Positions 1,735-23,122 of a DNA stretch of 64,000 bases are shown one piece after another (position 1 is the first letter of the stretch; each line of letters starts with the position of its first letter). Under the pieces are notes generated by a model. The model searched no databases. It was not told the origin of the DNA and was given only the letters and a program-made list of their open reading frames with translations. The DNA lies in the NCBI GenBank assembly GCA_963666565.1, contig OY762911.1, positions 3,456,001 to 3,520,000 on the forward strand, written 5' to 3'. Position numbers and translations under genes: made by a program. Source of the DNA: Thermoanaerobaculia bacterium. Lineage in GTDB: Bacteria; Acidobacteriota; Thermoanaerobaculia; Multivoradales; Multivoraceae.

Positions 1735-1735
1735 C

Positions 1736-5346: not shown

Positions 5347-5487
5347 CTGCTGCGGAGAGGCGGAGGCGGTACCCGCCTGCCTGGTCGGGACTCCGGGGGA
5401 TGGGTTCCAACCAGGCGGGTGCCCCGACGACCTCCGCTAACATCGAGCACTGACGTCTCGAACAGACCCGGCAGGAGGAATCGGAAA

Positions 5488-6492: not shown

Positions 6493-6514
6493 CGGCGGCC
6501 TGGCGGCCGCGCGG

Positions 6515-7282
6515 TCAGCCGGCGCCTTCCCGGACCGTGGCGAGGATGATCGAGATGTTGTCCCGGCCGCCGTCGTCCATGGCGAGATCGAACAGCCCGG
6601 TCGCCGCGGCGGCGCCAGTTTCGGCCGCCGCCAGGACCTCCTCGATCCGGCGAACGTCGAGGTGATCCGTCAGTCCGTCGCTGCAGAGCAGGTACCGCCA
6701 TCCGGCGTTCAGTTCTTCGCGGCCCACGTGAGGGCTCACGTCCACGAAGCTCGACCAGCCGCCCAGGGCCTGCGTGATGCGGCCCGATCGCGGCGCCTCG
6801 GGCGGCACGTCGTCGATGCTCAACTGCCTCGCGAACCCGTCACGGTAGCGGTAGATCCGGCTGTCCCCCACGTTGAACCAGCGGATGCCCCCGGACGCGA
6901 AGAGCATGCCGGCCACCGTGGTCCCCATCGCGCGTCTCCCGGGCGGTTCCGCCGCCGCCTCGTACACCGCCCGGTTCACGTCCCGGATCGCCTTCGCCGT
7001 CCCGGTGCCGAGTTCGTCGTCCTCCTCACCGATGCGCTCCGCCAGCAGGCGGGCGGCGAGCGCGCTCGCCTCCTGGCCCGCGGCGTGGCCTCCCATGCCG
7101 TCCGCCACCAAGCACAGGACCGGCTCACGAAGGGAGCGCTCGACCGACCGGGGCGCCTCCATTTCCTCGGCGCCGGCCCGGAAGTCCCCGACGACGATCG
7201 TGTCCTCGTTCCGCTCGCGGACCTTGCCCCGGTGGGTCCAGGCCGTCGCCTCCAGCGTGAACCGCCCGGCCGCGTCAGCCAA
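6515..7282 (-). CDS. PP2C/PPM-family Ser/Thr phosphatase
   Basis: GKVRERNED, VADGMGGH, MGTT, NVGDSRIY, LLCSDGL, GGRDNISII. Probable TTG start overlaps the FHA gene stop. Confidence 0.93.
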   Translation of the reverse strand: MADAAGRFTLEATAWTHRGKVRERNEDTIVVGDFRAGAEEMEAPRSVERSLREPVLCLVADGMGGHAAGQEASALAARLLAERIGEEDDELGTGTAKAIRDVNRAVYEAAAEPPGRRAMGTTVAGMLFASGGIRWFNVGDSRIYRYRDGFARQLSIDDVPPEAPRSGRITQALGGWSSFVDVSPHVGREELNAGWRYLLCSDGLTDHLDVRRIEEVLAAAETGAAAATGLFDLAMDDGGRDNISIILATVREGAG

Positions 7283-7856
7283 GCCGCACCACCGCGCCGG
7301 CATGGCGGGAGAAGCCGATCTCGTCGTCCTCCGCCAGGCGCCTGGACTCCCCCACGTCGCCGATCGCCGTGCCGTTGAGGTACGTCGGGTTCGTTCGGCT
7401 CAGATGGCGCACCGTCAGGAAACCCTCGCCGTCCAGAAAGAACTCCGCGTGCCGCCGGGACACGTACATGTTGCCGCTCAACTCCCGGGCGTGGCGGCAG
7501 AACTCCGGATCCCGTCCGATCCCCACCGTTTCGCCCGGACCCACCACGACGTCCCCCCATTCGAATGAGAGGGTGGCACGGGGACCCGCCCCGCCCGGCT
7601 CCATCGTCGTCGCCGCCACGCCGGCATCGGCCTGGGCCGCCACGCCGGCGCCGGCCGGCGGCGGCGGCACCGCTGCCGCGGCCGGTTCGCTCCGGTCCTC
7701 CCGCACGGGAGGGCCGCCGTCCTCGGCGCCCGCTGCGGGAGGAGGCGGGCCGGTCGTCTTCGCCGCTCCCGTGAGCGGCGTATGGCATTCGACGCAGAAC
7801 AGCTCGTGCAGGTCGTTGCCGGCGCCGCAGGCGGGACACTGGATCATTCGCGCCAT
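7275..7856 (-). CDS. Zinc-ribbon + FHA domain protein
   Basis: CPACG...FCVEC zinc ribbon and Pro/Ala linker, then FHA motifs IGRD, VSRRHA, SRTNPTYLNG. Confidence 0.9.
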   Translation of the reverse strand: MARMIQCPACGAGNDLHELFCVECHTPLTGAAKTTGPPPPAAGAEDGGPPVREDRSEPAAAAVPPPPAGAGVAAQADAGVAATTMEPGGAGPRATLSFEWGDVVVGPGETVGIGRDPEFCRHARELSGNMYVSRRHAEFFLDGEGFLTVRHLSRTNPTYLNGTAIGDVGESRRLAEDDEIGFSRHAGAVVRLG

Positions 7857-8496
7857 GAAGCACCCTTCAGAACGACCCCTCTCGCCGCCAGGTTCGCCTC
7901 GAGCCGCTCCAGGTCGCCGCCCGCCGGGATGCCGACCAGGGTCACGTCGCCTCGTCCCACCTCGACCTGGAGACGATCCCGTCCGGCGGGCCCCTCCCGG
8001 CCGAAGCGCCGGTAAAGCTCCCTGCCCCGCTCGCTCAGCCCGACGAGCTTCTGGTTCGCCGACCCCAGCCAGCGGGACTCGCCGCTCAGGCTGGCCACGA
8101 ACGGTTCGGCGATCAGGCCGTCGAGGCCCGCCAGCACGGCCGGAAAGTCGGCGCGCAGGCGGCGCAGGCCGAAGCCGCTGTAGCAGAGGATGTCGAACCA
8201 GCCCTCCGGACGCTCGCTCCGCCACGACCGAAGACTCTCCACGAAGGCCGCCAGCGCGTCCGGCTGCTCGAAGGGCTCGCCGCCGCTGATCGTCACGCCG
8301 TCGAACCCTCCCGAACCGGCGGCCCGGCACCACTCGACCAGTTCGTCGACCTCCACGGACCGGCCCCCTTCGGGGTCCCATGTGTCCCGGGACGAGCAAC
8401 CCGGGCAGCCGATGGAGCAGCCCTGGAACCAGACGCCGATCCTCCGGCCGGGGCCGAGCGTGGTCACCGGAAACCGGGCGTCGTTCAGCCGCACCC

Positions 8497-8500
<4 letters not shown>
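7844..8500 (-). CDS. NrdG-like radical SAM (4Fe-4S single-cluster) protein
   Basis: LGPGRR.GVWFQGCSIGCPGC (CxxxCxxC), GVTISGGEPFEQ, YSGF, GSANQ. ATGA overlap with the AAA gene. Confidence 0.9.
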
Positions 8501-10484
<1,984 letters not shown>

Positions 10485-10488
<4 letters not shown>

Positions 10489-11855
10489 CGGGCGGCCTCC
10501 CGGACCTCGGCTTTGCGACGCCGGGGCCGCTGCGCGCGGGCGGGCGCCGCGGCTTCCTTCCGGGCTCCCTCACCCTCGTGGACCTTCAGCCGGCTGACGC
10601 CGACCGGGAAGCGCTTCCCCACCTTGAGGCGGACGCCCCGCCCGGCCATGGCCCGGCGAAACTCCCCGAAGTCCCGGCACCAGGCACTCTCCAGGTCCCG
10701 GTCCCGGCGCACGTCCTTGCCGGCCTTCTGCCGGCCGGAAGCCGCGACGCGGACCGGCTCGACATCGATGGCGTTTCCATCGACGTCGACGACGACGCCG
10801 AGTTCTTCTTCGTCCGTCTTCCTCAGGATCGTCCGTCCGCCGTCGGAGAAGATCGAGTCGAAACCATCTTCGACGGCATATCCCAGGCGCTCGAGTTCCT
10901 CCCGCATCACCATGCCGACATACCGCTGGTCGTCCCGCTCCCTGCCGCTCCGGACGACTGCTTCGACGCGATCCGCAATGCCGTCGTCGAGCGCGGCCCG
11001 GCGCCGTTCGACGCGATCGAGTTCGGCCGAGATCGCCTCCACCTCTTCGCCGCGGAAACCGCGGATCCGCTCCCTGAGATCCTCCACCGCATCGGCCAGG
11101 TGCCGGTCCGCTTCGACCTTGGCCTCCTCGACCCGGTCGTTCGCTCGCTGGACCCCCAACCGGAGCTCCAGCAGCATCCTTCCGGCTCGCGCCGGACGTC
11201 CTTCACGTTCTTCGGCGCCGATGCGGGCGGCCAGTTCCTCCAGGCCGCTCCGGTCCGCGGCGGGAACCTCGGCCGACAGACGGTCGACCAGCCGCCGCGC
11301 ATCCCGCGCCGCCGCATCCGCGGGCGCCTCCGCGGTCTCCGCCGGGCCCGACGGGCCGTCCTCCGGGCGCGGCATGCCCTCCATGCCGGACAGTTCGGAT
11401 TCGGAGAACCCCTCGGCTACCGAGGGTTCCGCCGGGCCAGCCTCCGAGGTTCCCAGCGGACGGGCCTCAAGTCCGCCGAGAAGAAACGACCTGGCCTCAT
11501 CCTGTTGGCGCCGGCGCCCTTCCATCTTCCGGCGGTGCCGCTTCAGGCGCCCTTCCATGGTCAGGCAATGGCGCCGCAGGCGCCTCACATAGCGCTGGAC
11601 CGGCCTCGGGCTCCTCGCGTCAACGGGTCGCACGGGGGGCCGTCCCCACTCTGCCATCCCGTCCCGGTACTCCGCGTACGCGCTGCGGCTCTCCGAGTAC
11701 TCCGCCTCCAGCCGAGCCTGGCGGCTCTCCAGTTCGTCGGCTTCCCCCCAAGCCGCAGCCAAGGCTCGCTCGCGCCTTAGCCGCTCCTGCTCCGCCAGGT
11801 ATGCCAAGTACTCCGGGCTCGGCTCATTGTCCCACCATCCGTGCTCTTTGCTCAC
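10485..11855 (-). CDS. Coiled-coil hypothetical protein, copy 1 (C-terminal LGYxVExGF...ExxWC domain)
   Basis: GTG start VSKEHGWW matches the paralog start at 15880. E/R/A-rich helices. ATGA overlap with the AAA gene. Confidence 0.8.
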
Positions 11856-11921
11856 ATGAACACCACGTCTGTTTCGGCGAAGACAGCGAAGCGGCACGAC
11901 CGCGTCACGATCCGGCCCGAC

Positions 11922-11927
11922 TATACT
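11922..11927 (+). promoter_or_regulatory. Putative -10 box TATACT upstream of kinase 1
   Basis: TATACT is retained at the equivalent place (15944) in the otherwise diverged duplicate intergenic region. Confidence 0.5.
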
Positions 11928-12091
11928 CGCCCTTCCGCGATACCCGTTTCCGTGAAGGAGAGTCCGACCATGGCGCCGATACACCGCATCGCGGCCTGGA
12001 ACCCGGCGAAAAGCCCATGTCGGCTCGTCAGTCTCGGGCGAAGGGTCTCCCCCGCCGCGCCGGGATCGCGGCTCGAGAGAAGGCCCTCCGG

Positions 12092-14575
12092 GTGACCGAA
12101 GGGCGCGGCCCGCGGCCGCCGGACGAGACGCGGCGGGAAACGCCGTCGGCGACCGACGGGACCCGCCGGGAGACGCCGGCGCCGCCGGACGGGACGCGGC
12201 GCGAGGCGCCCTCGCCATCCGACGCGACCCGGCTGGAGTCGCCCGGTCCAGCGGATGCGACGCGCGCCGAAGAGGCGCCTCCAGGCCACGCCGGCGCCGG
12301 CTCTCCCACCGCAACTGGCTTTCCCCAGGACCTCGCGGCGCGCTTCCGGCCGGTCCGCGAGTTGGACCACGGCAACCAGGCCGACGTCTGGCTGGTGGAG
12401 GAAGAGGCGGGCGTTCCACTCGTCGCGAAAGTGTACCGGCCCGGGTTCGAGGGACGGCCGGACATCCTGGAGATCCTTCACGGCCTGGAACCGAACCGGG
12501 ACATCGTGCCGGTCGTCTCCTACGGCCGCGCCGGCGGCCGGCTGTACGTCCTGCTCGAGTACGTGCCGGGCGGCAACCTGAAGAGCCTGATGACGCCGGG
12601 CGAGCCGTCTTCGCCCGACCTCGTCCGCGAAGTGCTCGCGCAACTGGTCGCCGCTCTCGAACGCCTCCACGGAGTGGGCATCGAGCACCATGACCTGAAA
12701 CCCGGCAACGTCCTGGTCCGGAACCAGCAACCCCTGGACCTCGTGCTGGCCGACTTCGGCGTGGCGACCCAGGCGTCGAGAACGGTCCGGGCCACGAGGC
12801 TCAGCGGCATGACCTGGACCTACGCGCCCCCCGAGGCGTTCGCCAGGAATCCCGACGAACTGCTCCTCTGGCAGCACAAGTTCGACGCCTGGTCGCTGGG
12901 CGTCATGGTCGTGGAGTTGCTGACGGGCCGCAACCCGCTGCCGGAGACCGAGATGGCGATCGCGACGTTCTTCGCAACCGGCAACATGGACGACCTGGTC
13001 GAGGGCGTGGACGATCCGGCGTGGAGGAAGCTCTGCCGCGGTCTGCTGCGCCGGAATCCGGAAGTGCGCTGGGGCACGGCGGAGGCGCGGCGGTGGCTCG
13101 AGGCGCCGGATGCGCCCGAGCTCCAGGTGGAGGCCGAGACGGCGCCGGCGGCCGCGCCGTCGCGCGGTTTCCGCTTCGTGGGCCGGGACTACGCAACGCC
13201 AGCCGATCTGGGCGCGGCCATGGCCGGCGACTGGGCCATGGCCGAGGACCTCTGGAGGAACCAGACGCCGGCGCTGTTGCAGTGGCTCCGCCACGAACTC
13301 GGATCCACGGAGGCGGCGGCCCGCGTGGAGGAGATCGACGGCACGCCGGGCATGGGCCTGGACGAGCAGTTGTTCTGGGCAATCCGCGCGCTCGCCCCTC
13401 AGGCGCCGCCGTCTTACCGGGGCGAGCCGCTGGCGGCCGAGAACCTGGCCCGGATCGCGAGCCGGGCGGCCGCGACGCCGGACGGGGACGACGCCCGCCT
13501 GCTGACGGCGGTCAGCCGCATCCCGCGTCTCGGTAGCAGCATCCCGCAGGTCGGAGATGCGGGGAATCCGGCGTTGACCGCGCAGGCGGCGCGATGGTCC
13601 GGCACGGCGCCGGCCTGGGAAGAGCTGCGCCGGGCACACGGGGAACTGCCGGAGCTCCCGGAGACGGACCGGATTGCCCTGCTGGCCGCGGCGACCGAGG
13701 GCAGCGGCGTGACCGAGCAGTTGCGGGAGCGGACATCGCAGGTCCTCGCCAAGTGGCCGCGGGCCAGGAAGTCCGCCCGGTTCCGGCGCCTCGGCGACCC
13801 AAGGCGCGCCGAGAGTCCTCAGCTTCTCGCCATGGCCCTGCTCGCCGCGACGACCCACGAGCGGGTCAAGACGGAAACGAGGGAAAGGCTGAAGACGCGC
13901 CGCCTGGCCATCGCCGCGGGAGCGCTGTCCGGACTCGTCTTCCTCCTCATCCGCCTCCTCATCGAGCCGTCGATGGCCGCCGCCGCCGGCCGGTTCGAGT
14001 ACGTGACCGCCCCGGAAGGCGACGGCGCCGACGTCGCCTGGAGGTTCTTCTGGGGCGAGTTCATGTCGTCCAGCGAGCAGTTCGCCCCCGTGCCGGCGAT
14101 GGTGGTTGGCGCCGCGGTCGCGCTCTGGCTGTGGTGGCGGTTCAGGCCGTCAGGCTGGGTCGTCCTGCTGTGCGGTCCGCCGGCGTTCCTTCTCGGCGCC
14201 GCGTTGACGATCATCAGCCTGTACGAGTTGTTCGGAAGCGTCATGATTCTCAGCTACACGATTCCCGGTCCGCTTCTCGTGGACGCCAGTTTCATCGTCG
14301 GGGCTTGCCTGGGCGTCGGCTTCGGCCTTGGCGTGGGTCTCGAACGCCTGCGCCTGAAACTCTCGGCGCGGACCTTTGCGCTCGCGCCGCTCGCCGTCAC
14401 GCTCTGCATCGTTCTGGTGTGCGCGGCCATCGGCGCCGCGCGCTTCCCCGGTTGGCATGCCGGGCTGTTCGGGGACCCGCCTCCGCTCGGAGACGGCGTG
14501 TACCGGGTGGACGGCCAGCACTACCGGGTGCAGGACGGCGTGGGGGTCGAGATAGAGGCGCCCGTTTCGGAATAG
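12092..14575 (+). CDS. Ser/Thr protein kinase 1 (non-RD) with N-terminal Thr repeats and C-terminal multi-TM domain
   Basis: VAKVY, HHDLKPGN, DFG, YAPPE, DAWSLG. GTG start (VTEG) shared by all three paralogs. Several C-terminal hydrophobic helices. Confidence 0.9.
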   Translation: MTEGRGPRPPDETRRETPSATDGTRRETPAPPDGTRREAPSPSDATRLESPGPADATRAEEAPPGHAGAGSPTATGFPQDLAARFRPVRELDHGNQADVWLVEEEAGVPLVAKVYRPGFEGRPDILEILHGLEPNRDIVPVVSYGRAGGRLYVLLEYVPGGNLKSLMTPGEPSSPDLVREVLAQLVAALERLHGVGIEHHDLKPGNVLVRNQQPLDLVLADFGVATQASRTVRATRLSGMTWTYAPPEAFARNPDELLLWQHKFDAWSLGVMVVELLTGRNPLPETEMAIATFFATGNMDDLVEGVDDPAWRKLCRGLLRRNPEVRWGTAEARRWLEAPDAPELQVEAETAPAAAPSRGFRFVGRDYATPADLGAAMAGDWAMAEDLWRNQTPALLQWLRHELGSTEAAARVEEIDGTPGMGLDEQLFWAIRALAPQAPPSYRGEPLAAENLARIASRAAATPDGDDARLLTAVSRIPRLGSSIPQVGDAGNPALTAQAARWSGTAPAWEELRRAHGELPELPETDRIALLAAATEGSGVTEQLRERTSQVLAKWPRARKSARFRRLGDPRRAESPQLLAMALLAATTHERVKTETRERLKTRRLAIAAGALSGLVFLLIRLLIEPSMAAAAGRFEYVTAPEGDGADVAWRFFWGEFMSSSEQFAPVPAMVVGAAVALWLWWRFRPSGWVVLLCGPPAFLLGAALTIISLYELFGSVMILSYTIPGPLLVDASFIVGACLGVGFGLGVGLERLRLKLSARTFALAPLAVTLCIVLVCAAIGAARFPGWHAGLFGDPPPLGDGVYRVDGQHYRVQDGVGVEIEAPVSE
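12116..12275 (+). repeat. Five 33-bp (11-aa) repeats D-x-T-R-x-E at the kinase 1 N-terminus
   Basis: DETRRE, DGTRRE, DGTRRE, DATRLE, DATRAE at 11-aa spacing. Confidence 0.8.
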
Positions 14576-14593
14576 GGTCGCGGCCCGCGACGC

Positions 14594-15880
14594 TCACCGC
14601 CCGGCTTGCCGGACCTGGGGCTTGCGGCGCCGGGACCGCTTCGCGCGGGAGGCCGACGCGGCTTCCTTCCGGCCTCCCTCGCCCTCGTGGACCTTCAGCC
14701 GGCGAACGCCGACCGGTAAGCGCTTCCCCACGCGGATGTCGACGCCCCGGCCGGCCATGGCCTGGCGGACCTCCGCGAAGTCCCGGCACCACGCGCTCTC
14801 CAGTTCCCCGTCCCGCCGCGCACCCTTGCCGGCCTTCAGCCGCCCGGAAGCCGCGACGCGGACCGGCTCGACACCGATGGCATTGCCCGCGACATCGACG
14901 ACGACGCCGAGTTCCTCTTCGTCCGTCTTCTTCAGGAGCGTGCTCCCGCCCCCGGAGAAGATCGAGTCGAAACCCTCCTCGACGGCATAGCCCAGGCGCT
15001 CGAGTTCCTCGCGCATCACCATGGCGACGTACTGCTGCGCGTTCCGCTCCCGGGCGCCCCGGACGACCGCCTCGACGCGATCCGCGATGTCTCCGTCGAG
15101 CGTGGCCCGGCGCTGTTCGACGAGGTCGAGTTCGGCCGAGATCTTCGCGACGTCATCGCCGCCGAATCCGAGGAGCTTCTCCCGGAGATCTCCCACCGCC
15201 TCGGCCAGGCGCCGGTCCGCTTCGACCCTGGCCTCCTCGACCCGGTCGTTCGCTCGCTGCACCCCCAGCCGGAGTTCCAGCAGCATCGTTCTGGCTCGCT
15301 CCGGATGCTCTTCGGCGGCGATGCCCGCCGCCAGTTCTTCCAAGGCGCCCCGGTCCGCGGCGGGAACCTCGGCCGACAGGCGGCCGACCAGCCGCCGCGC
15401 GTCGCGCGCCGCCCCGTCCGCGGACGCGCCCACGGTCTCGGGCGAGCCGGACGGAGATTCCTCCGGCCCGGCCACGTCGTCCAGGCCGGACACCTCGGAT
15501 TCGGAGAGCCCGGCGGCCTCCGGGGCGCCTGGCGAGCCGGCCTCGAACCCGTCGAGAAGAAACGACCGGACCTCGCGTTGCCGGCGGCGTAGCCGGCGCC
15601 CCCTCAGGCGCCCTTCCAGAGTGACGTAGTGGGAGCGCAGGCGCCTCACATAGTCCACGGCCACATCCGGGGGACCCTCAACATCGGGTCGCGCGGGCGG
15701 CCGTTTCATCTCGTTCCGGTACTCCGGATACTCCGCCTCCAACCTGGCCTGCAACGTGCCCACGCGTTCCTCCATTCGGAGCGCTTCGTTCCAACATCGC
15801 TGGTAGGCTCGCTCGATTCCCAGCGGCCCTCCCCATCGATTCTCATCCAGGAGTGTCCACCACCCGTTCTCTTTGCTCAC
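14594..15880 (-). CDS. Coiled-coil hypothetical protein, copy 2 (paralog of 10485-11855)
   Basis: Highly similar C-terminal two-thirds (VMREELERLGYAVEEGFDSIFS, ESAWCRDF) with a divergent N-terminus. Confidence 0.8.
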   Translation of the reverse strand: MSKENGWWTLLDENRWGGPLGIERAYQRCWNEALRMEERVGTLQARLEAEYPEYRNEMKRPPARPDVEGPPDVAVDYVRRLRSHYVTLEGRLRGRRLRRRQREVRSFLLDGFEAGSPGAPEAAGLSESEVSGLDDVAGPEESPSGSPETVGASADGAARDARRLVGRLSAEVPAADRGALEELAAGIAAEEHPERARTMLLELRLGVQRANDRVEEARVEADRRLAEAVGDLREKLLGFGGDDVAKISAELDLVEQRRATLDGDIADRVEAVVRGARERNAQQYVAMVMREELERLGYAVEEGFDSIFSGGGSTLLKKTDEEELGVVVDVAGNAIGVEPVRVAASGRLKAGKGARRDGELESAWCRDFAEVRQAMAGRGVDIRVGKRLPVGVRRLKVHEGEGGRKEAASASRAKRSRRRKPQVRQAGR

Positions 15881-15943
15881 AGCATCTCCATGGCGGCTTC
15901 AGGTCGGACCGCGACGCAGGCCGGTCTCGTCGAATCGACACAC

Positions 15944-15949
15944 TATACT
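15944..15949 (+). promoter_or_regulatory. Putative -10 box TATACT upstream of kinase 2
   Basis: Positional counterpart of 11922-11927. Confidence 0.45.
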
Positions 15950-16120
15950 CACGACAATGCCCTCAATCGCCACTCCCTCCAGTGAAGACGAGTCAGACCA
16001 TGGCGCCGATCCATCGCGTCGCGGCCGGAGTTCGGTACGGACCTGTTGCCCGCTCGCCGGGCTCGGGAGAGCGGCTTCCCGCACGGCGCCGGGATTGCGG
16101 ATCGCGCGAAGGCCCATCGG

Positions 16121-18391
16121 GTGACTGAAGGCGGCGGCCCGCGACCCCCTGACGGGACCCGGCGAGAAACACCGGGGCCGCCGGACGAGACGCAGCGCGA
16201 AGCCCCCTCGCCATTCGACGCGGCCCTGCCCGAGTCCTCCGCCGCGGCGGATGCGACGCGCGCCGAAGAGGCCCACCCCGCCGCGTCGCCTTCCGCGACC
16301 GGCTTCCCCGAAGAGCTCGCGACGCGTTTCCGGCCCGTCCGCGAGCTCGACCACGGCAGCCAGGCCGACGTCTGGCTGGTGGAGGACGACGCCGGCACGC
16401 CGTTCGTCGCGAAGGTGTTCCGCCCCGGATTCGAGGGACGGCGGGACATCCTGGAGATCCTGCATGGCCTGGAACCGAACCGGGACATCGTGCCCGTGGT
16501 CTCCCACGGCCGCGCCGACGGCCGGCTGTACGTCGTGCTCGAGTACGTGCCGGGGGGCAACCTGAGGGGTCTGATGCAGCCGGGCGTTCCGGCCTCGACC
16601 GATCTGGTCCGCGAGGTGCTGACGCAGTTGGTCTCCGCGCTCGAGCGGCTCCACGGAAAGGGCATCGAGCATCAGGACCTGAAGCCCGGCAACGTCCTGG
16701 TGCGGAGCCGGCAGCCCCTGGATCTGGTGCTGGCCGACTTCGGCGTCGCCGCCCAGACGTCGGAGACCGTCCGGGCCACCAGGCTGGCCGGCATGACCTG
16801 GGCCTACGCGCCGCCCGAGGCGTTCTCGCTCCAGCGCGAAGAACTGATGCTCTGGCGGGGCAAGTACGACGCCTGGGCGCTGGGCGTCATCGTCGTGGAG
16901 CTGCTGACGGGCCGGCATCCGCTGCCGGGAAGCGAGGCGGCGATCGCGACGTTCTTCGTGACCCGCGGCACGGACGACCTGGTCGTGGGCGTGGACGATC
17001 CGGCATGGCGGAAGCTCTGCCGCGGCCTGCTGCGCCGGGATCCGGAAGCCCGCTGGGGCACGGCGGAAACTCGGCGATGGCTCGAGGCGCCGGACGCGCC
17101 CGAGCTCGATGTGAAGGAAGAGGCGGCGCCGGCGCGGGGCTTCCGCTTCGTCGGTCGGGACTACGCGACGCCCGCCGATCTGGGCTCGGCGATGGCCGGC
17201 GACTGGAACTCGGCCGAGGACGTCTGGAGGAACCGAACGCCCGAACTGGTGCAGTGGCTCCGCCACGAGCTCGGAACTCCCGACGTGGCGGCCCGCCTGG
17301 AGGAGATCGACCGCACGCCGGGTCTGGACTTGGACGCGCAGTTGTTCTGGGCGATCCGCGCGCTCGCCCCCCGGTCGCGGCCGTCGTTCCGGGGCGAGTC
17401 GCTGGCGACGGAAAACCTGGCGCTTGTCGCCAGCCGGGCCGCTGCCCGGCCGGACGGCGCCGACGCCGGGCTGCTGCTGGCGGTCAGCAATGTGCCTGGC
17501 CTCGGCGAGATCGGAGATCCGGCACTGACCGCGCAGACGGCGCGGTGGTCGGGCGTGGAGGCGGCCTGGGAAGAGCTGCGCGGACAACACGGGGAGCTGC
17601 CGGGTCTCTCGGAGACCGATCGGTCGACCCTGCTGGCGGCGGCGACCGAAGGCAGCGGCGTCACCGAGCAGTTACGGGAACGGACGTCGCGGGTCCTCGC
17701 GAAGCGGCCGCGGGCCGCGAAGTCCGACTGGTTCAAGCGCCTCGGCGCCGTGAGAAGCGCCGAAGCGCCGTGGCTTCGCGCCATGACCCTGCTCGCCGGC
17801 CAGGCGCACGAGGAGGTCGAGGCGGAACTCAGGTTGCGGCGGAAGACGCGGCGTCTGGCCATCGCCGCCGGAGCGGCGGCCGGAATCGCGATCAGCCTTC
17901 TCGTCCTGTTGATCGAGCCCTTCATAACCCACGACCCGATGCCCAGCCTGGTTGTCAGCGCAGCGATCGCGGCACTGGTGGTGATCGCGGCACTGGTCGG
18001 ATTCGGCACGAGATCGCGGCCGACCGGCGCTTCCGCCGAGGGCCTCTCGAACTTGGGGGCACGGTACGAGTTCCTCTTGGGCATCCCGGGCTGCTTTTCG
18101 GTGTTCGGGCTCATGTTCATCGGTCCGTTGATGTGGTCCTGGCTGTTCGGGAGAATCCCCGGTCCGTTCCTCGTGGACGCCGGTCTCGTCATCCTGCCGT
18201 GCACGGCCATCGGCTTCGGTGTTGGCGCGGCTCTCGAGCGCCTGAACCGGCAGCTCACGGTGCGTACCGCCGCCCTCGCAACGCTGGCGATCATGTTCGC
18301 GGTCGCGCTCGTGTCCTTAGTGATCCTGCTTTCGGAATTGGCCAGCGGAGAGTCCGCCGGAATTCGCGGCGGCTTGGAGGACGGCCCTTGA
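16121..18391 (+). CDS. Ser/Thr protein kinase 2 (non-RD) with variable C-terminal TM domain
   Basis: VAKVF, HQDLKPGN, DFG, YAPPE, DAWALG. Paralog of kinase 1. Confidence 0.9.
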   Translation: MTEGGGPRPPDGTRRETPGPPDETQREAPSPFDAALPESSAAADATRAEEAHPAASPSATGFPEELATRFRPVRELDHGSQADVWLVEDDAGTPFVAKVFRPGFEGRRDILEILHGLEPNRDIVPVVSHGRADGRLYVVLEYVPGGNLRGLMQPGVPASTDLVREVLTQLVSALERLHGKGIEHQDLKPGNVLVRSRQPLDLVLADFGVAAQTSETVRATRLAGMTWAYAPPEAFSLQREELMLWRGKYDAWALGVIVVELLTGRHPLPGSEAAIATFFVTRGTDDLVVGVDDPAWRKLCRGLLRRDPEARWGTAETRRWLEAPDAPELDVKEEAAPARGFRFVGRDYATPADLGSAMAGDWNSAEDVWRNRTPELVQWLRHELGTPDVAARLEEIDRTPGLDLDAQLFWAIRALAPRSRPSFRGESLATENLALVASRAAARPDGADAGLLLAVSNVPGLGEIGDPALTAQTARWSGVEAAWEELRGQHGELPGLSETDRSTLLAAATEGSGVTEQLRERTSRVLAKRPRAAKSDWFKRLGAVRSAEAPWLRAMTLLAGQAHEEVEAELRLRRKTRRLAIAAGAAAGIAISLLVLLIEPFITHDPMPSLVVSAAIAALVVIAALVGFGTRSRPTGASAEGLSNLGARYEFLLGIPGCFSVFGLMFIGPLMWSWLFGRIPGPFLVDAGLVILPCTAIGFGVGAALERLNRQLTVRTAALATLAIMFAVALVSLVILLSELASGESAGIRGGLEDGP

Positions 18392-18452
18392 CCAGCAAGG
18401 TACACATCCGGATCGCCGTCCCGGAGACAGCGGCCGGGGAAGGGCACTCCAG

Positions 18453-20789
18453 GTGACCGAAGGCGGCGGCCCGCGGCCCCCTGCCGGAACACGGCGCGAG
18501 CCGCCGGAGGCGCCGGACGAGACGCAGCGCGAAGCCCCCTCGCCATTCGACGCGACCCTGCCGGAATCCTCCGCCGCGGCGGATGCGACGCGCGCCGAAG
18601 AGGCACCTCTCGCCCACCCCGCCGCGCCGCCTTTCGCGACCGGCTTCCCCGAAGAGCTCGCGACGCGTTTCCGGCCCGTCCGCGAGCTCGACCACGGCAG
18701 CCAGGCCGACGTCTGGCTGGTGGAGGACGACGCCGGCACGCCGTTCGTCGCGAAGGTGTTCCGCCCCGGATTCGAGGGACGGCGGGACATCCTGGAGATC
18801 CTGCATGGCCTGGAACCGAACCGGGACATCGTGCCCGTGGTCTCCCACGGCCGCGCCGACGGCCGGCTGTACGTCGTGCTCGAGTACGTGCCGGGGGGCA
18901 ACCTGAGGGGTCTGATGCAGCCGGGCGTTCCGGCCTCGACCGATCTGGTCCGCGAGGTGCTGACGCAGTTGGTCTCCGCGCTCGAGCGGCTCCACGGAAA
19001 GGGCATCGAGCATCAGGACCTGAAGCCCGGCAACGTCCTGGTGCGGAGCCGGCAGCCCCTGGATCTGGTGCTGGCCGACTTCGGCGTCGCCACCCAGGCA
19101 TCGGAGACCGTCCGGGCCACCAGGCTGGCCGGCATGACCTGGGCCTACGCGCCGCCCGAGGCGTTCTCGCTCCAGCGCGAAGAACTGATGCTCTGGCGGG
19201 GCAAGTACGACGCCTGGGCGCTGGGCGTCATCGTCGTGGAGCTGCTGACGGGCCGGCATCCGCTGCCGGGAAGCGAGGCGGCGATCGCGACGTTCTTCGT
19301 GACCCGCGGCACGGACGACCTGGTCGTGGGCGTGGACGATCCGGCATGGCGGAAGCTCTGCCGCGGCCTGCTGCGCCGGGATCCGGAAGCCCGCTGGGGC
19401 ACGGCGGAGGCGCGGCGGTGGCTCGAGGCGCCGGACGCGCCCGATCTGGACGTGAAGGACGAAGCGGCGCCGGCGACGACGCCGTTGCGCGGCTTTCGCG
19501 TCAAGGATCGGGACTACGCGACGGCCGCCGACCTGGGCTCGGCGATGGCCGGCGACTGGGCCATGGCCGAGGACGTCTGGAGGTACAGGACGCCGGAACT
19601 GCTCCAGTGGCTCCGCCACGAACTCGGAACTCCGGACGTGGCGGCCCGCCTGGAGGAGATCGACCGCACGCCGGGTCTGGACTTGGACGCGCAGTTGTTC
19701 TGGGCGATCCGCGCGCTCGCCCCCCGGTCGCGGCCGTCGTTCCGGGGCGAGTCGCTGACGGCGGAGAATCTGGCGCGCGTCGCCAGCCGGGCGGCCGCGC
19801 GGCCGGACGGCGCCGACGCCGGGCTGCTGGTGATGCTCCACGACATTCCTCGTCTCGGAGGCCCCGGAGATCCGGCGCTGACCGCGCAGATGGCGCGATG
19901 GTCCGGCGCGGCGGCGGCCTGGGGAGCTCTTCGCGGAGAGCACGCCGAACTGCCCGAGCTTTCGTCGACCGAACAGAAGCTCCTGCTGGCCGCGGCGACC
20001 GAAGGCAGCGGCGTGACCGAGCAGTTGCGGGAACGGACGCGGGACGTTCTCGCGAAGTGGCCGCGGGCCCGGAAGTCCGACTGGTTCCGGCGCCTCGGCG
20101 CCGTGAGACGTGCCGAAGGGCCGCAGCTTCTCGCCATGGCCCTGCTCGCCGGTCAGGCGCACGACGAGGTCGAGGCGGACGTCCGGGCGAGCCGGAAAAC
20201 CCGGTGGCTCGGCATCGGCGCCGGAGCGACGTCCGGCCTCGCGTTCTCGCTCCTCTGCCTGTTCTTCAAAGGGCTGATGTTGGAGTACGACGATTGGGTG
20301 GCCCTCTGGGACGACAGCGCCTCCTTCCTGGGGCCGACCATCGCTGTGCTGGCGATGCTGGCTGGAGGAGCGACGGTCTTGATCTGGGTACTCGGCCGTT
20401 CTCTAGTGGCCTTAGATCTCGCGAACCCGTTCTATAACTGCCTCTTGATTCTGTGCGGCTCTCCGTTGTTGTTGCTCGCCGTGTTTTCTCTGACGTATTT
20501 CTTCCTGTATGGGCTGTTCGGAAGCGCCATGATCCTGAGCTACACGATTCCGGGCCCGTTCTTCCTGGCGCCGGGTTTCGCTCTCGTGATCTGCATGGCC
20601 ATCGGCATCGGTCTCGGCATGGCTCGCGATGTCCTGAACCTGAAGGAGACCGTCACCACCAGAGAGACGCTGAACCGGCTCATCCTCGACACGCTGGTCA
20701 TCACGCTCTGCGTCATCCTGATGTGCGCGGCCATCGGCGCCGCGCGCTTCCCGGGTTATCTTGGTGCTCTTTTCGGCGAGTGGGGCTAG
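18453..20789 (+). CDS. Ser/Thr protein kinase 3 (non-RD) with variable C-terminal TM domain
   Basis: Catalytic domain nearly nucleotide-identical to kinase 2. Distal part closer to kinase 1. Confidence 0.9.
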   Translation: MTEGGGPRPPAGTRREPPEAPDETQREAPSPFDATLPESSAAADATRAEEAPLAHPAAPPFATGFPEELATRFRPVRELDHGSQADVWLVEDDAGTPFVAKVFRPGFEGRRDILEILHGLEPNRDIVPVVSHGRADGRLYVVLEYVPGGNLRGLMQPGVPASTDLVREVLTQLVSALERLHGKGIEHQDLKPGNVLVRSRQPLDLVLADFGVATQASETVRATRLAGMTWAYAPPEAFSLQREELMLWRGKYDAWALGVIVVELLTGRHPLPGSEAAIATFFVTRGTDDLVVGVDDPAWRKLCRGLLRRDPEARWGTAEARRWLEAPDAPDLDVKDEAAPATTPLRGFRVKDRDYATAADLGSAMAGDWAMAEDVWRYRTPELLQWLRHELGTPDVAARLEEIDRTPGLDLDAQLFWAIRALAPRSRPSFRGESLTAENLARVASRAAARPDGADAGLLVMLHDIPRLGGPGDPALTAQMARWSGAAAAWGALRGEHAELPELSSTEQKLLLAAATEGSGVTEQLRERTRDVLAKWPRARKSDWFRRLGAVRRAEGPQLLAMALLAGQAHDEVEADVRASRKTRWLGIGAGATSGLAFSLLCLFFKGLMLEYDDWVALWDDSASFLGPTIAVLAMLAGGATVLIWVLGRSLVALDLANPFYNCLLILCGSPLLLLAVFSLTYFFLYGLFGSAMILSYTIPGPFFLAPGFALVICMAIGIGLGMARDVLNLKETVTTRETLNRLILDTLVITLCVILMCAAIGAARFPGYLGALFGEWG

Positions 20790-20873
20790 TAAACTGTGTG
20801 GCACATCGACGGCAAGCACTACGGGTTCCGGGGCGGCGACCCGGTCGAGTTGGAGGCGCCCGTTTCGGAGTAG
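20790..20873 (+). pseudogene. In-frame vestigial C-terminal tail of kinase 3 beyond TAG-TAA
   Basis: Reads *TVWHIDGKHYGFRGGDPVELEAPVSE*, homologous to the kinase 1 tail VYRVDGQHYRVQDGVGVEIEAPVSE*. Confidence 0.8.
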
Positions 20874-20884
20874 AGTCGCGCCCC

Positions 20885-23122
20885 ATGAAGCGCCTTCCGG
20901 CGGCGACCATCGCCGCACTCCTGTCGCTGTGGGCCGCCGCGTCGGGGGCCCAGATCGCCCGCCCGTCCGCCGCGGCGGTGGCCGTGGGCGAGGCCCCGGC
21001 GCTCGATGGCGCCGTCCTCGACGATCCCGTCTGGCAAAGCGTCGCGCCGGTCTCGGGCACGACGCAGACCCGGCCGTTCGCCGGCGAGCCGGGCACGGAA
21101 CGCACCGAAGTGCGTTTCGCCTTCACCGAGGACACCCTCTTCGTCGGCGTCGTCTGCCACGACCGGGCGCCGGACGGCATCGTCATCTCGGACAGCCGGC
21201 GGGACGCGGCCCTGGACGAGACGGACAGCTTCCAGGTCATCTTCGACACGTTCCGGGACGGGCGCAACGGCTTCGTGTTCGGTACGAACCCGGCCGGCAT
21301 CGAGTACGACGGCCAGGTCGTCGAGGGCGGCTCCGGCGTGTTCAGCGGCATGGGCGGCGGCGGCCGCTTCCGGGGCGCCCTGAGCACCGGCTTCAACCTG
21401 AACTGGGACGGCGCCTGGAACGTCGCCACAGAGGTCGGAGAGTTCGGCTGGAGCGCCGAGTTCGCCATTCCCTTTCGCACCCTCCGCTATCCCCCGACCG
21501 ACGTGCAGACCTGGGGCCTCAACTTCCAGCGCAACATCGCCCGCCACCGGGAAGTCGCCTTCTGGGCCGAGCTCGACCGGAACCACGACCTCGACCGGCT
21601 GACCGACGCGGGCTCGCTCCAGGGCGTCGAGCCGCCGCCGCAGCGCAACCTGAAGCTGATCCCCTACGCGATCGGATCGAGCAGGGAGCCGCCCGCGGCC
21701 GGCAGCGGCAGCGAGTCGGACTCCGACCTCGGCGTCGACCTCAAGTACAGCGTGACCCCGAGCCTGACCCTCGACGTGACGTACAACACGGACTTCGCCC
21801 AGGTCGAGGTCGACGAGCAGCAGGTGAACCTCGACCGGTTCAACCTGTTCTTCCCCGAGAAGCGGCCGTTCTTCCTGGAGAACGCCGGCCTGTTCACCGT
21901 CGGCGCGCGTTCGGGGGGAAGCCGCGCGTCGGCCCGCGTCGACCTGTTCTTCAGCCGGCGCATCGGCATCGGGCCCGGCGGCGAACTGATCCCGATCGAC
22001 TACGGCGGCCGGCTCTCCGGCAAGGCGGGCCGCTTCAACGTCGGGCTGCTCCACATGCAGACCGCGTCGGTGGGAGGGCTGCACGGCAACGACTACGCCG
22101 TCGCCCGCGTCAACCGGGAACTGGGCGAGCGCTCCAGCATCGGCGGCATGTTCGTGAGCCGCGAGGGCGTGGGCAGCCTCGCGCCGGAGGGCGACACGAA
22201 CCGGACCTACGCCATCGACGGCAAGTGGGGCATCGGCGAGCATCACACCGTCGAGACCTACGTCGCCCGGACCGACACGCCGGGACTCGAGGGCGACGAC
22301 AGCTCGATGCTCCTGAGCTACAACCTCGGCAAGCCGCAGTGGCGCGGCAGCCTCAGCCTCGCCGAGGCGCGCGCGAACTTCAACCCGGAAGTCGGCTTCA
22401 TGTCGCGGCGGGACTTCCGGAACTTCTCCACGTTCGTGATGCGCACGGTCCGGCCGAAGAACCTCGCCGGCTTCCACGAGATCCGGCCCCACGCCTCCTA
22501 CAGCGGCATCTGGGACTTCGACGACTACAAGGAGACCCAGTACATCCACGTCGACACGCACTGGGAGTGGCGCAACGGCTTCCAGGTCCACACCGGCGTG
22601 AACTTCACCGAGGAGGGCGTCAAGGAGACGTTCGAGATCGTCGACGGCTTCCCGGTCCAGGCGGGAAGGTACAGCCACGACGAGCTGCAGACCGTGTTCT
22701 CGACGAACCAGGCGAAGCCGTTCTCGGTCTACATCCGCAACGTCACGGGCGGCTTCTTCGGCGGCGACCGGAGTTCCACCTCGCTCACCCTGCTCGCCCG
22801 GCGCGGCGAGCGGCTGACCTCGGAACTGACCTGGGACCACAACGACGTGGACATCGCCTCCGGCGGCTTCCAGGTCAATCTGGGCCGGCTCCGGCTCTCC
22901 TACTCCATCACCCCCCGGATGCTCGTCCAGGCGCTCGCCCAGTACAACGACCAGTCCGACAACGTGTCCGCGAACCTGCGCTTCTCCTGGCTGCAGGACG
23001 CGAACACGGGGCTGTTCGTGGTCTACAACGAGATCGACGAGCTGGGCGCGCGGATCCTCTACGAGAGGCCGGACCGCACCGTGATCGTCAAGTACAGCCG
23101 CCTGATCGACGTCTTCCGTTGA
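20885..23122 (+). CDS. CBM9-like/DUF5916 outer-membrane-associated protein
   Basis: Signal peptide. APALDG..DDPVW, WSAEFAIPFRTLRY, NTDFAQVEVD, EKRPFFLE, LFFSRRIG. Confidence 0.85.
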   Translation: MKRLPAATIAALLSLWAAASGAQIARPSAAAVAVGEAPALDGAVLDDPVWQSVAPVSGTTQTRPFAGEPGTERTEVRFAFTEDTLFVGVVCHDRAPDGIVISDSRRDAALDETDSFQVIFDTFRDGRNGFVFGTNPAGIEYDGQVVEGGSGVFSGMGGGGRFRGALSTGFNLNWDGAWNVATEVGEFGWSAEFAIPFRTLRYPPTDVQTWGLNFQRNIARHREVAFWAELDRNHDLDRLTDAGSLQGVEPPPQRNLKLIPYAIGSSREPPAAGSGSESDSDLGVDLKYSVTPSLTLDVTYNTDFAQVEVDEQQVNLDRFNLFFPEKRPFFLENAGLFTVGARSGGSRASARVDLFFSRRIGIGPGGELIPIDYGGRLSGKAGRFNVGLLHMQTASVGGLHGNDYAVARVNRELGERSSIGGMFVSREGVGSLAPEGDTNRTYAIDGKWGIGEHHTVETYVARTDTPGLEGDDSSMLLSYNLGKPQWRGSLSLAEARANFNPEVGFMSRRDFRNFSTFVMRTVRPKNLAGFHEIRPHASYSGIWDFDDYKETQYIHVDTHWEWRNGFQVHTGVNFTEEGVKETFEIVDGFPVQAGRYSHDELQTVFSTNQAKPFSVYIRNVTGGFFGGDRSSTSLTLLARRGERLTSELTWDHNDVDIASGGFQVNLGRLRLSYSITPRMLVQALAQYNDQSDNVSANLRFSWLQDANTGLFVVYNEIDELGARILYERPDRTVIVKYSRLIDVFR

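What the first reader, a model, noticed from the sequence alone, without database searches (positions are those of the whole stretch)
12092..20789. Three paralogous kinases with a conserved cytoplasmic part and hypervariable C-terminal membrane domain (polymorphic receptor array)
Seen: the kinase domain and following helical domain align closely across 12092, 16121 and 18453. After the shared KTRRLAI/KTRWLGI motif the TM and loop regions diverge strongly, apart from an anchor LFG...IPGP(F/L)(L/F). Part of the kinase 3 variable region (about 20380-20520) is visibly AT-richer. Inference: constant signalling module plus variable sensor, the architecture expected of diversifying immune-like receptors.
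Basis: partly seen in the sequence, partly recalled or inferred. Interest (0 to 1): 0.8.

Follow-up and report, generated by a model that had tools for sequence, protein, structure and literature searches.

The report
Three sensor kinases, divergent membrane ends
Three neighbouring copies of a membrane-bound signalling kinase share nearly the same inner half but carry very different membrane parts; they are the multiplied input of a rare, imported, still unnamed six-gene system, and the contrast owes much to copy-correction of the inner halves, with no sign of ongoing hypervariation.

Summary
K1 (12092-14575), K2 (16121-18391) and K3 (18453-20789) are intact paralogous Hanks-type Ser/Thr kinases: a Thr-rich N-terminal tail, a non-RD kinase domain, a helical domain with no clear structural match, and a 5-TM C-terminal module found almost nowhere else. 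Identity is 75-89% before the KTRRLAI motif and 30-42% after it.

K2 and K3 share a 457-nt identical tract, so gene conversion homogenises the 5' parts. Synonymous divergence is also higher in the TM part. Codon-bias-aware dN/dS there is 0.38-0.51, not above 1. In metagenome relatives each TM type is as conserved as the cytoplasmic part (76-99% against 90-96%). Assembled contigs of other sequencing runs show the TM regions identical or 93-97% alike. The TM parts are therefore old, stable paralog types, not hypervariable alleles.

The three kinases lie in a 14.3-kb island not found in the same-genus genomes searched. They are a threefold expansion of the kinase of a conserved cassette: coiled-coil protein, Clp-like AAA+, NrdG-like radical SAM, FHA, PP2C, kinase. 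I found no description of this cassette. This scan had already noted it on other DNA (e1-3077829).

The parts
12092..14575 (+). K1. Ser/Thr kinase of 827 aa: N tail with 5 T[RQV]x[ED] motifs, non-RD kinase domain (HHD), helical middle domain, 5-TM module with a 37-aa outside loop 1 and a 46-aa outside tail.
16121..18391 (+). K2. Ser/Thr kinase of 756 aa. It has the most divergent 5-TM module: loop 1 is almost deleted, 10 residues of the conserved loop 3 are missing, and it has the longest C-part branch (1.41).
18453..20789 (+). K3. Ser/Thr kinase of 778 aa. Nucleotides 183-639 and 649-956 are identical to K2. TM2 to TM3 (20380-20520) is AT-richer.
20793..20873 (+). Remnant of the K1-type outside tail. 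It is in frame behind the TAG TAA that ends K3 and is 79% identical in DNA to 14510-14593.
14594..15880 (-). CC2. Coiled-coil protein of 428 aa, divergent from K2. It is a paralog of CC1 (61% identity, higher in the C-terminal 280 aa) and has no known family.
10485..11855 (-). CC1. Coiled-coil protein of 456 aa, divergent from K1. It is the first gene of the minus-strand operon, and its stop overlaps the AAA+ start.
8497..10488 (-). Clp/Hsp100-like AAA+ ATPase of 663 aa. A family-specific N-terminal 335 aa is followed by an AAA_2 domain (165.8 bits) and ClpB_D2-small.
7844..8500 (-). NrdG-like radical SAM protein of 218 aa (Fer4_12, CxxxCxxC, GGEP). It is below the NrdG equivalog cut-off.
7275..7853 (-). 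Zinc-ribbon plus FHA protein of 192 aa. The usual GR, SxxH and NG motifs are visible in the sequence.
6515..7303 (-). PP2C-type Ser/Thr phosphatase of 262 aa.
6500..20865 (.). Island of 14.3 kb that holds exactly the nine genes above. In four same-genus genomes the two flanking genes lie about 20-210 bp apart.

Best explanation
K1, K2 and K3 are three paralogous, membrane-anchored, non-RD Hanks-type Ser/Thr kinases. They serve as the input component of a horizontally acquired, undescribed cassette: coiled-coil protein, Clp-like AAA+ ATPase, NrdG-like radical SAM enzyme, zinc-ribbon FHA protein, PP2C phosphatase and kinase. Elsewhere the cassette has one kinase. In this sponge-associated lineage the kinase is triplicated and the coiled-coil gene is duplicated. 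Shown: the cytoplasmic halves are kept alike by purifying selection (dN/dS 0.13-0.2) and by gene conversion. The 5-TM modules escaped homogenisation and are old, distinct types. They differ most in the outside loop 1, in TM2-TM3 and in the outside tail, and each type is then conserved between strains. Inferred: the three membrane modules are alternative sensing or localising inputs to one shared pathway. An activated kinase phosphorylates the tandem T-R-x-E/D motifs of its own N-terminal tail. The FHA protein docks on these motifs and passes the signal to the AAA+, radical SAM and coiled-coil part. PP2C resets the system. What the output does is not known. Its patchy, mobile distribution and some of its neighbours make an anti-invader or envelope-surveillance role the leading guess.
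For: Architecture and paralogy.
Gene conversion: K2 and K3 share a 457-nt identical run (0 of 2000 shuffles reach it), and 775 nt carry only 3 differences.
Higher synonymous divergence in the TM part.
Purifying selection: ML omega is 0.13-0.14 in the kinase and 0.38-0.51 in the TM part.
Stable TM types: within types the C part is 76-99% identical against 90-96% for the N part; between types it is 33-57% against 80-87%. The trees agree.
Contigs of other runs are identical, or 93-97% alike, over the TM regions.
Topology: five hydrophobic segments with basic inside loops. Variability peaks in the outside loop 1 and the tail.
Cassette: the same genes in the same order occur in a Longimicrobiales MAG. 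16 metagenome loci of the 79 kept hold at least two of the other cassette genes beside the kinase. One more genome of the same phylum has it.
Island.
Rarity: the kinase was found in 0 of 24 same-genus genomes. The AAA+ N-domain was found in 2 of 401 genomes of the phylum, this genome included.
T[RQV]x[ED] motifs: 2-6 in the 49-88-residue tail against 0-2 in the remaining 625-783 residues, in 16 of 16 close relatives. Similar repeats occur in distant homologs.
Against: No experiment or expression data exist for any part. The TM module has no relatives outside this small clade and is modelled at pLDDT 50-70 only, so 'sensor' is inferred from position and variability, not from a known fold. dS in the TM part is near saturation for K2 pairs, so omega there is imprecise. 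K2 has lost conserved loop residues and K3 has lost its tail, which also fits partial decay. The C parts of K1-K3 do not pair with the types of the metagenome clade. Repeated lineage-specific divergence, possibly adaptive, is therefore not excluded. FHA docking on the TRxE repeats is an inference from motif and gene linkage only.
Confidence: 0.55

Rival explanations
1. Diversifying immune-like receptor array. The membrane modules are under recurrent positive selection to track changing external ligands such as phage or host molecules, and the array gives a repertoire.
For: At least 10 TM types occur among 16 proteins while the N parts stay 71% identical or more. Between-type C-part divergence is about 8 times that of the N part, yet about equal within types, which fits bursts after duplication. 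Variation is greatest in the outside loop 1 and tail. Expansions look lineage-specific. Mosaic similarity appears within the TM part: K1 resembles K3 at columns 706-735 and 781-810, and K1 resembles K2 at 721-765. The AT-richer TM2-TM3 of K3 has lowered GC3, which could be an imported segment. Some cassette loci sit beside CHAT, TIR-WD40, Z1/DUF4420 or GAP1-N2 genes.
Against: No pairwise omega exceeds 1 once codon bias is modelled (0.38-0.51). Synonymous divergence is raised too. TM types are conserved between strains and samples. No diversification machinery lies in the island: its nine genes are all accounted for, and there are no silent cassettes or template repeats.
Confidence: 0.2
2. Redundant copies under relaxed constraint. 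The 5-TM module is only a membrane anchor that tolerates almost any hydrophobic sequence, and the differences between copies are functionally neutral, with K2 and K3 partly decaying.
For: Omega rises from 0.14 to about 0.4-0.5 towards the 3' end. K2 lacks 10 conserved loop-3 residues and nearly all of loop 1. The K3 tail is cut off by TAG TAA. The wider family has from 0 to about 7 hydrophobic segments.
Against: All three ORFs are intact and keep five hydrophobic segments. Within types the TM part is as conserved as the kinase part. Loop 3, TM4, loop 4 and TM5 keep 51-65% identity across all types, more than a mere anchor needs.
Confidence: 0.15
3. The membrane module is the effector and not the sensor. 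On activation the 5-TM parts assemble and damage the membrane, as TM effectors of abortive-infection systems do, and the kinase part regulates them.
For: It is a multi-pass module without a globular outside domain. The cassette has a possible defence context.
Against: Distant cassette kinases carry other C-terminal parts, for example a peptidoglycan-binding domain or none (4 of 28). This fits a variable input better than a conserved effector. The conserved AAA+ and radical SAM pair is the more likely output, and it also occurs with other partners on Rhizobium plasmids.
Confidence: 0.1

Closest known systems
Bacterial receptor-type Hanks kinases (PknB/Stk1 PASTA kinases)
   Same: A cytoplasmic Pkinase domain is followed by a membrane passage and an outside part, and works with a PP2C phosphatase and FHA proteins. 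The NCBIfam PknB_PASTA model hits the kinase domain (76.4 bits).
   Different: The score is far below the cut-off of 450. There is no PASTA or other globular outside domain. There are five TM segments instead of one. The kinase is non-RD (HQD/HHD). A 260-residue helical domain has no clear structural match. The N tail carries TRxE repeats.
Threonine phosphorylation pathway of the type VI secretion system (PpkA, PppA, Fha1, ClpV/TssH); names recalled, not from a call
   Same: The same four kinds of parts occur in one locus: a membrane Ser/Thr kinase, PP2C, an FHA protein and a Clp-type AAA+ ATPase.
   Different: The AAA+ scores 208.9 bits against a TssH cut-off of 884.95. It has one active ring plus a family-specific N domain. 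No secretion-apparatus genes lie in the nine-gene island. A radical SAM enzyme and a coiled-coil protein are added.
Kinase-bearing defence systems in PADLOC and NCBIfam (MADS MAD6, PD-T4-6, Mokosh MkoA, BREX PglW)
   Same: Ser/Thr kinase domains in mobile, patchy loci. The best PADLOC hit is mad6 at 1.5e-34 to 3.2e-38.
   Different: The hits cover the kinase domain only. NCBIfam scores are 88.7 against 460 for MAD6 and 51 against 990 for PglW. None of the partner genes of those systems is present.
NTP-dependent conflict systems of Kaur, Burroughs, Iyer and Aravind 2020 (PMC7159879; passages read)
   Same: That paper describes GAP1-N2 neighbourhoods with an active kinase fused to TM helices plus PP2C, and FtsH-type ternary systems with a radical SAM effector. 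A GAP1-N2 gene lies beside one cassette locus (L039).
   Different: None of the passages I read describes the combination Clp-like AAA+, NrdG-like radical SAM, coiled-coil protein, FHA, PP2C and kinase. No vWA or MoxR gene is in this island.
The same cassette as noted earlier by this scan (e1-3077829)
   Same: A kinase, NrdG-like radical SAM, coiled-coil and Clp-like AAA+ cassette across several phyla, with no description found.
   Different: Here the kinase is triplicated with divergent membrane modules, the coiled-coil gene is duplicated, and the kinases face away from the rest of the operon.

Membership tests
Hanks-type Ser/Thr protein kinase (Pfam PF00069) | Pfam Pkinase match above the gathering score | tested here: met
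   103, 104.4 and 105.2 bits against 31.7.
Hanks-type Ser/Thr protein kinase (Pfam PF00069) | Catalytic motifs: beta-3 Lys, HxDLKPxN, DFG, APE | tested here: met
   VAKV, EH(Q/H)DLKPGN, ADFG and APPE are seen in all 16 aligned relatives. The residue before the catalytic Asp is Q or H, so the kinase is non-RD.
PknB/Stk1 PASTA receptor kinases | Equivalog score and extracellular PASTA repeats | tested here: not met
   76.4 bits against a cut-off of 450. There is no PASTA hit in Pfam.
Diversifying or hypervariable receptor genes | dN/dS above 1 in the variable part | tested here: not met
   GY94 ML with F3x4 gives 0.47, 0.38 and 0.51. NG86 gave 0.85-1.37, but at pS 0.41-0.48 against 0.60-0.62 for shuffled codons. 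Only three sequences have DNA, and dS is near saturation for K2 pairs.
Diversifying or hypervariable receptor genes | Variable part differs between strains or within a population more than the constant part | tested here: not met
   Orthologous types: C part 76-99% against N part 90-96%. Contigs of runs X6, X8 and X9 show 0 differences over the TM regions. In run X1 the differences are 54 of 761, 18 of 641 and 32 of 457. Contigs cannot show rare variants.
Diversifying or hypervariable receptor genes | A diversification mechanism nearby (retroelement with template repeat, silent cassettes, invertible segments) | tested here: not met
   The island's nine genes are all assigned. The repeats in 5300-21100 are the paralogs themselves. 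Only the island was examined, not the whole genome.
Known kinase-bearing defence systems (MADS, PD-T4-6, Mokosh, BREX) | Full-length model match and the system's partner genes | tested here: not met
   PADLOC hits are limited to residues of about 60-340. NCBIfam scores are far below the cut-offs. No partner genes were hit.
Type VI secretion threonine phosphorylation pathway | TssH/ClpV equivalog and neighbouring secretion-apparatus genes | tested here: not met
   208.9 bits against 884.95. No such genes are in the island.
Undescribed cassette: coiled-coil, Clp-like AAA+, NrdG-like radical SAM, FHA, PP2C, kinase | All six gene kinds linked, with the family-specific AAA+ N domain and the kinase middle domain | tested here: met
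   All six are in the window. The same set in the same order is in L006, in L102 and in part or whole in 16 metagenome loci.

The most novel reading that the evidence does not exclude
The cassette is a new kind of envelope-linked anti-invader system. Non-RD membrane kinases act as its receptors. FHA docking on a phosphorylated TRxE-repeat tail switches on a Clp-like unfoldase and an NrdG-like radical SAM enzyme. In sponge symbionts the receptor has been expanded into a small repertoire of alternative membrane modules that arose by bursts of adaptive divergence after duplication.
Probability: 0.2. Interest if true: 0.85.

Novelty: new variant of a known kind. Interest (0 to 1): 0.5.

Why it matters
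Membrane Ser/Thr kinases with PP2C and FHA partners are a known kind of bacterial signalling. This case has three features I found in no paper searched. First, the kinases carry a confidently folded helical domain with no clear structural match and an orphan 5-TM module. Second, they carry a family-wide tail of TRxE repeats that suggests a testable FHA docking code. Third, they feed a Clp-like ATPase and an orphan NrdG-like radical SAM enzyme. The triplication gives a natural experiment: one pathway with three inputs. It is also a clean example of how gene conversion can make a gene family look 'constant plus hypervariable'. If the cassette proves to be a defence or envelope-surveillance system, these kinases would be its receptors.

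Tried and rejected
Complex prediction of the K3 middle domain with CC2 residues 140-428 gave no verdict (score 0.00), so it says nothing either way.

Fold searches:
- The full K3 model returned only kinase domains.
- The middle-domain model (pLDDT 93.5) had no Foldseek match at E 0.001 or better.
- With VIA-align its best Z was 7.0 over 81 residues, within the noise stated for helical models.

Sequence searches:
- Searches of the PDB with the coiled-coil profile and with the AAA+ N domain gave only designed helical bundles or nothing.
- The protein atlas gave only unnamed clusters for CC2.
- A profile of the three TM modules against 1.84 billion representatives found only K1 itself and two fragments of 144 and 58 aa.
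- No match for the AAA+ N domain was found in the phage collection.

Literature: three full-text searches on combinations of radical SAM, FHA, PP2C, Clp/ClpB/AAA+, kinase, anti-phage, conflict systems and defence island found two papers. Neither describes this set in the passages I read.

NG86 dN/dS of about 1 in the TM part was rejected as an estimate after the shuffled-codon control and the ML model.

I also considered and rejected:
- A DGR or cassette-switching mechanism, because there is no retroelement or template copy in the island.
- A type VI secretion link, because no apparatus genes are present.
- The CC protein as the glycyl-radical partner of the radical SAM enzyme. Its invariant L-G-Y does not fit the glycyl-radical signature as I recall it, so this stays an untested idea.

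Run X1 holds only a fifth of the sampled words. I used its contigs only for the rough divergence figures given.
Full report
OBSERVATION

The three + strand ORFs at 12092-14575 (K1), 16121-18391 (K2) and 18453-20789 (K3) are intact and encode proteins of 827, 756 and 778 aa. Each has a Pkinase domain well above the Pfam threshold. The catalytic motifs VAKV, EH(Q/H)DLKPGN, DFG and APPE are present. The residue before the catalytic Asp is Q or H, so these are non-RD kinases.

A tblastn search of the whole 4.79-Mb genome finds only these three copies. In the kinase plus helical part, identity is 76% (K1-K2), 75% (K1-K3) and 89% (K2-K3). Behind the KTRRLAI/KTRWLGI motif it is 30%, 42% and 32%. The sliding profile falls steeply after alignment column 615, following a gradual decline from about column 450. 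The anchor LFG...IPGP is present in K1 and K3 and only partly in K2.

The AT-richer stretch 20380-20520 has GC 0.518. That is lower than all but 0.03% of 141-nt windows in the window. All three codon positions are lowered (0.49/0.35/0.72).

ANATOMY

Each protein has four parts.
- A disordered N-terminal tail of 60-75 residues with 3-5 copies of T-[RQV]-x-[ED]. Across all 16 close relatives the tail holds 2-6 copies, against 0-2 in the remaining 625-783 residues.
- The kinase domain.
- A helical domain of about 260 residues. It is modelled at pLDDT 93.5 and has no Foldseek match at E 0.001 or better. The best VIA-align Z is 7.0 over 81 residues, which the tool rates as noise level for helical models.
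- A C-terminal module with five hydrophobic segments.

By hydropathy and the basic inside loops (RFRPSG; ERLxLKLTxRT), the predicted layout is TM1, outside loop 1, TM2, short inside loop, TM3, outside loop 3 (LFGSxMILSYTIPGP), TM4, inside loop, TM5 and an outside tail. This topology is my inference. AlphaFold gives the module only pLDDT 50-70.

A profile of the three modules, searched against 1.84 billion representative proteins, found only K1 itself and two fragments. The module is therefore an orphan.

RELATIVES

A search of 5.8 billion proteins with residues 330-778 of K3 returned 16 proteins: the three from this genome and 13 from metagenome assemblies. Three of the 13 report the same 94,264-bp longest contig and two the same 7,436-bp one. 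They probably lie together on those contigs, which I infer from the equal contig lengths.

The C parts of these relatives fall into discrete types:
- A: P0011, P0012, P0013.
- B: P0015, P0017, P0020.
- C: P0019, P0021, P0022.
- Singles: P0010, P0014, P0016.

Within a type the C part is 76-99% identical against 90-96% for the N part. Between types it is 33-57% against 80-87%. In the trees, both parts recover A, B and C. Branch lengths within types are alike in the two parts, while between-type paths are about eight times longer in the C part (P0018 was left out of the C-part tree because its C part is truncated).

K1, K2 and K3 do not pair with A, B and C. In the N-part tree they form their own clade together with P0018. 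In the C-part tree they form a weak, long-branched group.

By segment, between-type identity is lowest in:
- outside loop 1 (0.19, length 11-65 aa);
- TM3 (0.24);
- loop 2 (0.27);
- TM2 (0.32);
- the outside tail (0.36).

It is highest in loop 3 (0.65), loop 4 (0.58), and TM4 and TM5 (0.51 each). Within types every segment is 0.78-0.93.

WHY THE CONTRAST ARISES

K2 and K3 share a 457-nt run without any difference; 0 of 2000 shuffles of the variable sites reach this length. Over 775 nt there are only three differences, and a further 123 nt are identical. Gene conversion is therefore acting on the 5' parts.

Four-fold degenerate sites in identical-residue codons give these identities:
- K1 against K2 or K3, N part: 75-81%.
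- K2 against K3, N part: 87-99%.
- All pairs, TM part: 56-66%, against a chance level of 34-39%.

NG86 gave dN/dS of 0.85-1.37 in the TM part. However, pS there (0.41-0.48) approaches the value for shuffled codons (0.60-0.62).

A Goldman-Yang ML estimate with F3x4 codon frequencies gives omega of 0.13-0.14 for the kinase, 0.14-0.20 and then 0.28-0.52 along the helical domain, and 0.38-0.51 for the TM part. In the TM part dS is 1.3 (K1-K3) or above 5 (pairs with K2), against 0.03-0.74 in the kinase and first half of the helical domain, and up to 0.83 in its last third.

So the membrane parts are older than the homogenised 5' parts, or were exchanged from diverged copies. They are under weaker but still purifying selection. 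Nothing shows omega above 1. With three sequences and near-saturated dS, the test has little power.

STRAINS

Four runs were laid as Logan contigs. In X6, X8 and X9, which belong to one study and may include the source sample, the listed pieces over the three TM regions have 0 differences. These pieces include 13081-14447, 17375-18540 and 19728-20751.

In X1, from another study, which holds a fifth of the sampled words, pieces over the TM regions differ as follows:
- K1: 54 of 761.
- K2: 18 of 641, plus 6 gaps.
- K3: 32 of 457, plus 7 gaps.

Pieces elsewhere in X1 differ by 20 of 513 and 61 of 453. Contigs cannot show rare variants. At this resolution the TM regions are not more variable than the rest.

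CONTEXT

On the minus strand, divergent from K1, lies an operon with overlapping stops and starts:
- CC1 (10485-11855).
- A Clp-like AAA+ ATPase (8497-10488; AAA_2 165.8 bits, ClpB_D2-small, and a family-specific 335-residue N part).
- An NrdG-like radical SAM protein (7844-8500; CxxxCxxC; 69.8 bits against the NrdG cut-off of 126.1).
- A zinc-ribbon FHA protein (7275-7853).
- A PP2C phosphatase (6515-7303).

A second coiled-coil gene, CC2 (14594-15880, minus strand), is 61% identical to CC1 and lies divergent from K2. The CC-kinase intergenic regions of the two units align. The duplicated unit was therefore CC plus kinase, and K3 was added in tandem.

In four same-genus genomes the genes flanking this block lie about 20-210 bp apart. 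One of them is inverted relative to this genome. Window positions of about 6500-20865 are thus a 14.3-kb insertion that holds just these nine genes.

The kinase was found in 0 of 24 same-genus genomes at E 1e-20 or better. The two other hits among the 41 genomes searched cover the kinase domain only. The AAA+ N domain was found in 2 of 401 sampled genomes of the phylum, this genome included.

The same six gene kinds, in the order CC, AAA+, radical SAM, FHA, PP2C, kinase on one strand, occur in these places:
- A Longimicrobiales MAG (L006).
- The other positive genome of the phylum (L102).
- Whole or in part in 16 of the 79 metagenome loci kept. Many of the other loci are too short to tell. L011 and L015 lack the radical SAM hit, and L019, L020, L030 and L034 have another gene order.

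All of these loci have one kinase within the DNA held. L007, a 5.2-kb contig, has two kinases in tandem. In 24 of 28 kinase ORFs from these loci at least one hydrophobic segment was found (4 had none). Segment number varies from 1 to about 7, and L006 carries a peptidoglycan-binding domain.

The AAA+ and radical SAM pair also occurs on eight Rhizobium and Caballeronia plasmid records, five of them predicted conjugative. In the one record I examined it sits beside a 2087-residue AAA-domain protein in place of the kinase set. There it is annotated only as 'AAA family ATPase' and '4Fe-4S single cluster domain-containing protein'.

I scanned 53 of 89 flanking ORFs from eight loci. ORFs under about 170 aa, the near-duplicate locus L015 and three short loci were dropped. 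The results were:
- L011: two CHAT proteins.
- L027: a TIR-WD40 protein.
- L034: an HATPase_c_3, Z1 and DUF4420 trio.
- L039: a GAP1-N2 protein.
- L006 and L020: transposases.
- L019: pyrimidine-synthesis genes.
- L046: nothing named.

HOW IT PROBABLY WORKS

Shown:
- The domain make-up.
- The conserved gene linkage.
- The island.
- Gene conversion of the 5' parts.
- Stable TM types.

Inferred: the kinases are the membrane input of the cassette. The tandem TRxE/D motifs, which recur in distant homologs in forms such as TTRDG, TRRE and TRLD/E, are autophosphorylation sites. The cassette's FHA protein binds them, since FHA domains bind phosphothreonine with a preference at position +3 (established knowledge, recalled). 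PP2C resets the state. The AAA+, radical SAM and coiled-coil part is the output.

The three membrane modules would then give three alternative inputs or placements to one pathway. The duplicated CC genes suggest that CC is the kinase-proximal partner. A complex prediction of the K3 helical domain with CC2 gave no verdict.

COMPARISON AND NOVELTY

The genes are members of the Hanks kinase family. They are not members of the following families:
- PASTA kinases.
- The kinase families of MADS, PD-T4-6, Mokosh or BREX, where only the kinase domain is hit and scores are far below the cut-offs.
- The type VI secretion phosphorylation pathway, since there is no TssH-level match and no apparatus genes.

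Three full-text searches found no description of the cassette. In the two papers returned I read only the passages around the search terms.

This scan had already noted the cassette in another genome (e1-3077829) and the AAA+ family in a third (e1-4504438). I reached the cassette independently, before reading those notes. Earlier notes of the scan call this genome a sponge-symbiont acidobacterium; I did not test that.

What is new here is the lineage-specific threefold expansion of the kinase with divergent orphan membrane modules, the family-wide TRxE tail, and the evidence that the 'constant plus hypervariable' look comes largely from concerted evolution of the 5' parts.

VERDICT

The feature is real. 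I rate it a new variant of a known kind, of moderate interest.

Noticed in passing
window 20787-20873: K3 ends with TAG TAA. The same frame then continues for 26 codons that match the outside tail of K1 (79% DNA identity to 14510-14593). K3 has therefore lost its tail through in-frame stops.
   Followed up: partly
window 12092-12320, 16121-16300, 18453-18640; L019, L021, L025, L027, L030, L031, L033: The N-terminal tails of these kinases and of distant cassette kinases are built of tandem T-R-x-E/D motifs, up to about 7 copies (for example TTRDG repeated in L021). These are candidate phosphothreonine docking sites for the cassette's FHA protein.
   Followed up: partly
window 5555-6498 and 1031-3200: Relative to four same-genus genomes, the hydrolase gene next to the island is inverted. 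A second stretch of about 2.2 kb (1031-3200) has no counterpart in at least three of them.
   Followed up: no
window 20886-23122: The DUF5916 gene next to the island starts at the ATG at 20886 with a signal-peptide-like N terminus. It belongs to a family with 7 matches in this genome and 3-11 in the same-genus genomes searched.
   Followed up: no
window 14594-15880 and 10485-11855; alignment A7: The coiled-coil proteins of the cassette share a C-terminal domain with an invariant L-G-Y and a nearly invariant W-C, followed by a basic tail. Their N-terminal 150 residues differ between CC1 and CC2. The co-occurrence with an orphan NrdG-like activase raises the untested idea that this protein is its substrate.
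   Followed up: partly
L103 (Rhizobium leguminosarum plasmid pRLgr12_2) 8992-17733: The Clp-like AAA+ and the radical SAM gene occur as a pair followed by a 2087-residue 'AAA domain-containing protein', without the kinase, FHA and PP2C genes. The pair may be a core that recruits different partners.
   Followed up: no
L011 12057-17349; L027 14675-16999; L034 412-5530; L039 2720-4432: Cassette loci in metagenomes lie next to CHAT-domain proteins, a TIR-WD40 protein, an HATPase_c_3/Z1/DUF4420 trio and a GAP1-N2 protein. All of these are typical of conflict or defence neighbourhoods.
   Followed up: partly
L007 41-2353 and 2513-4855: A 5.2-kb metagenome contig carries two tandem kinases of the wider family, 36-37% identical to K3. 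Kinase duplication is therefore not confined to the sponge-associated clade.
   Followed up: no
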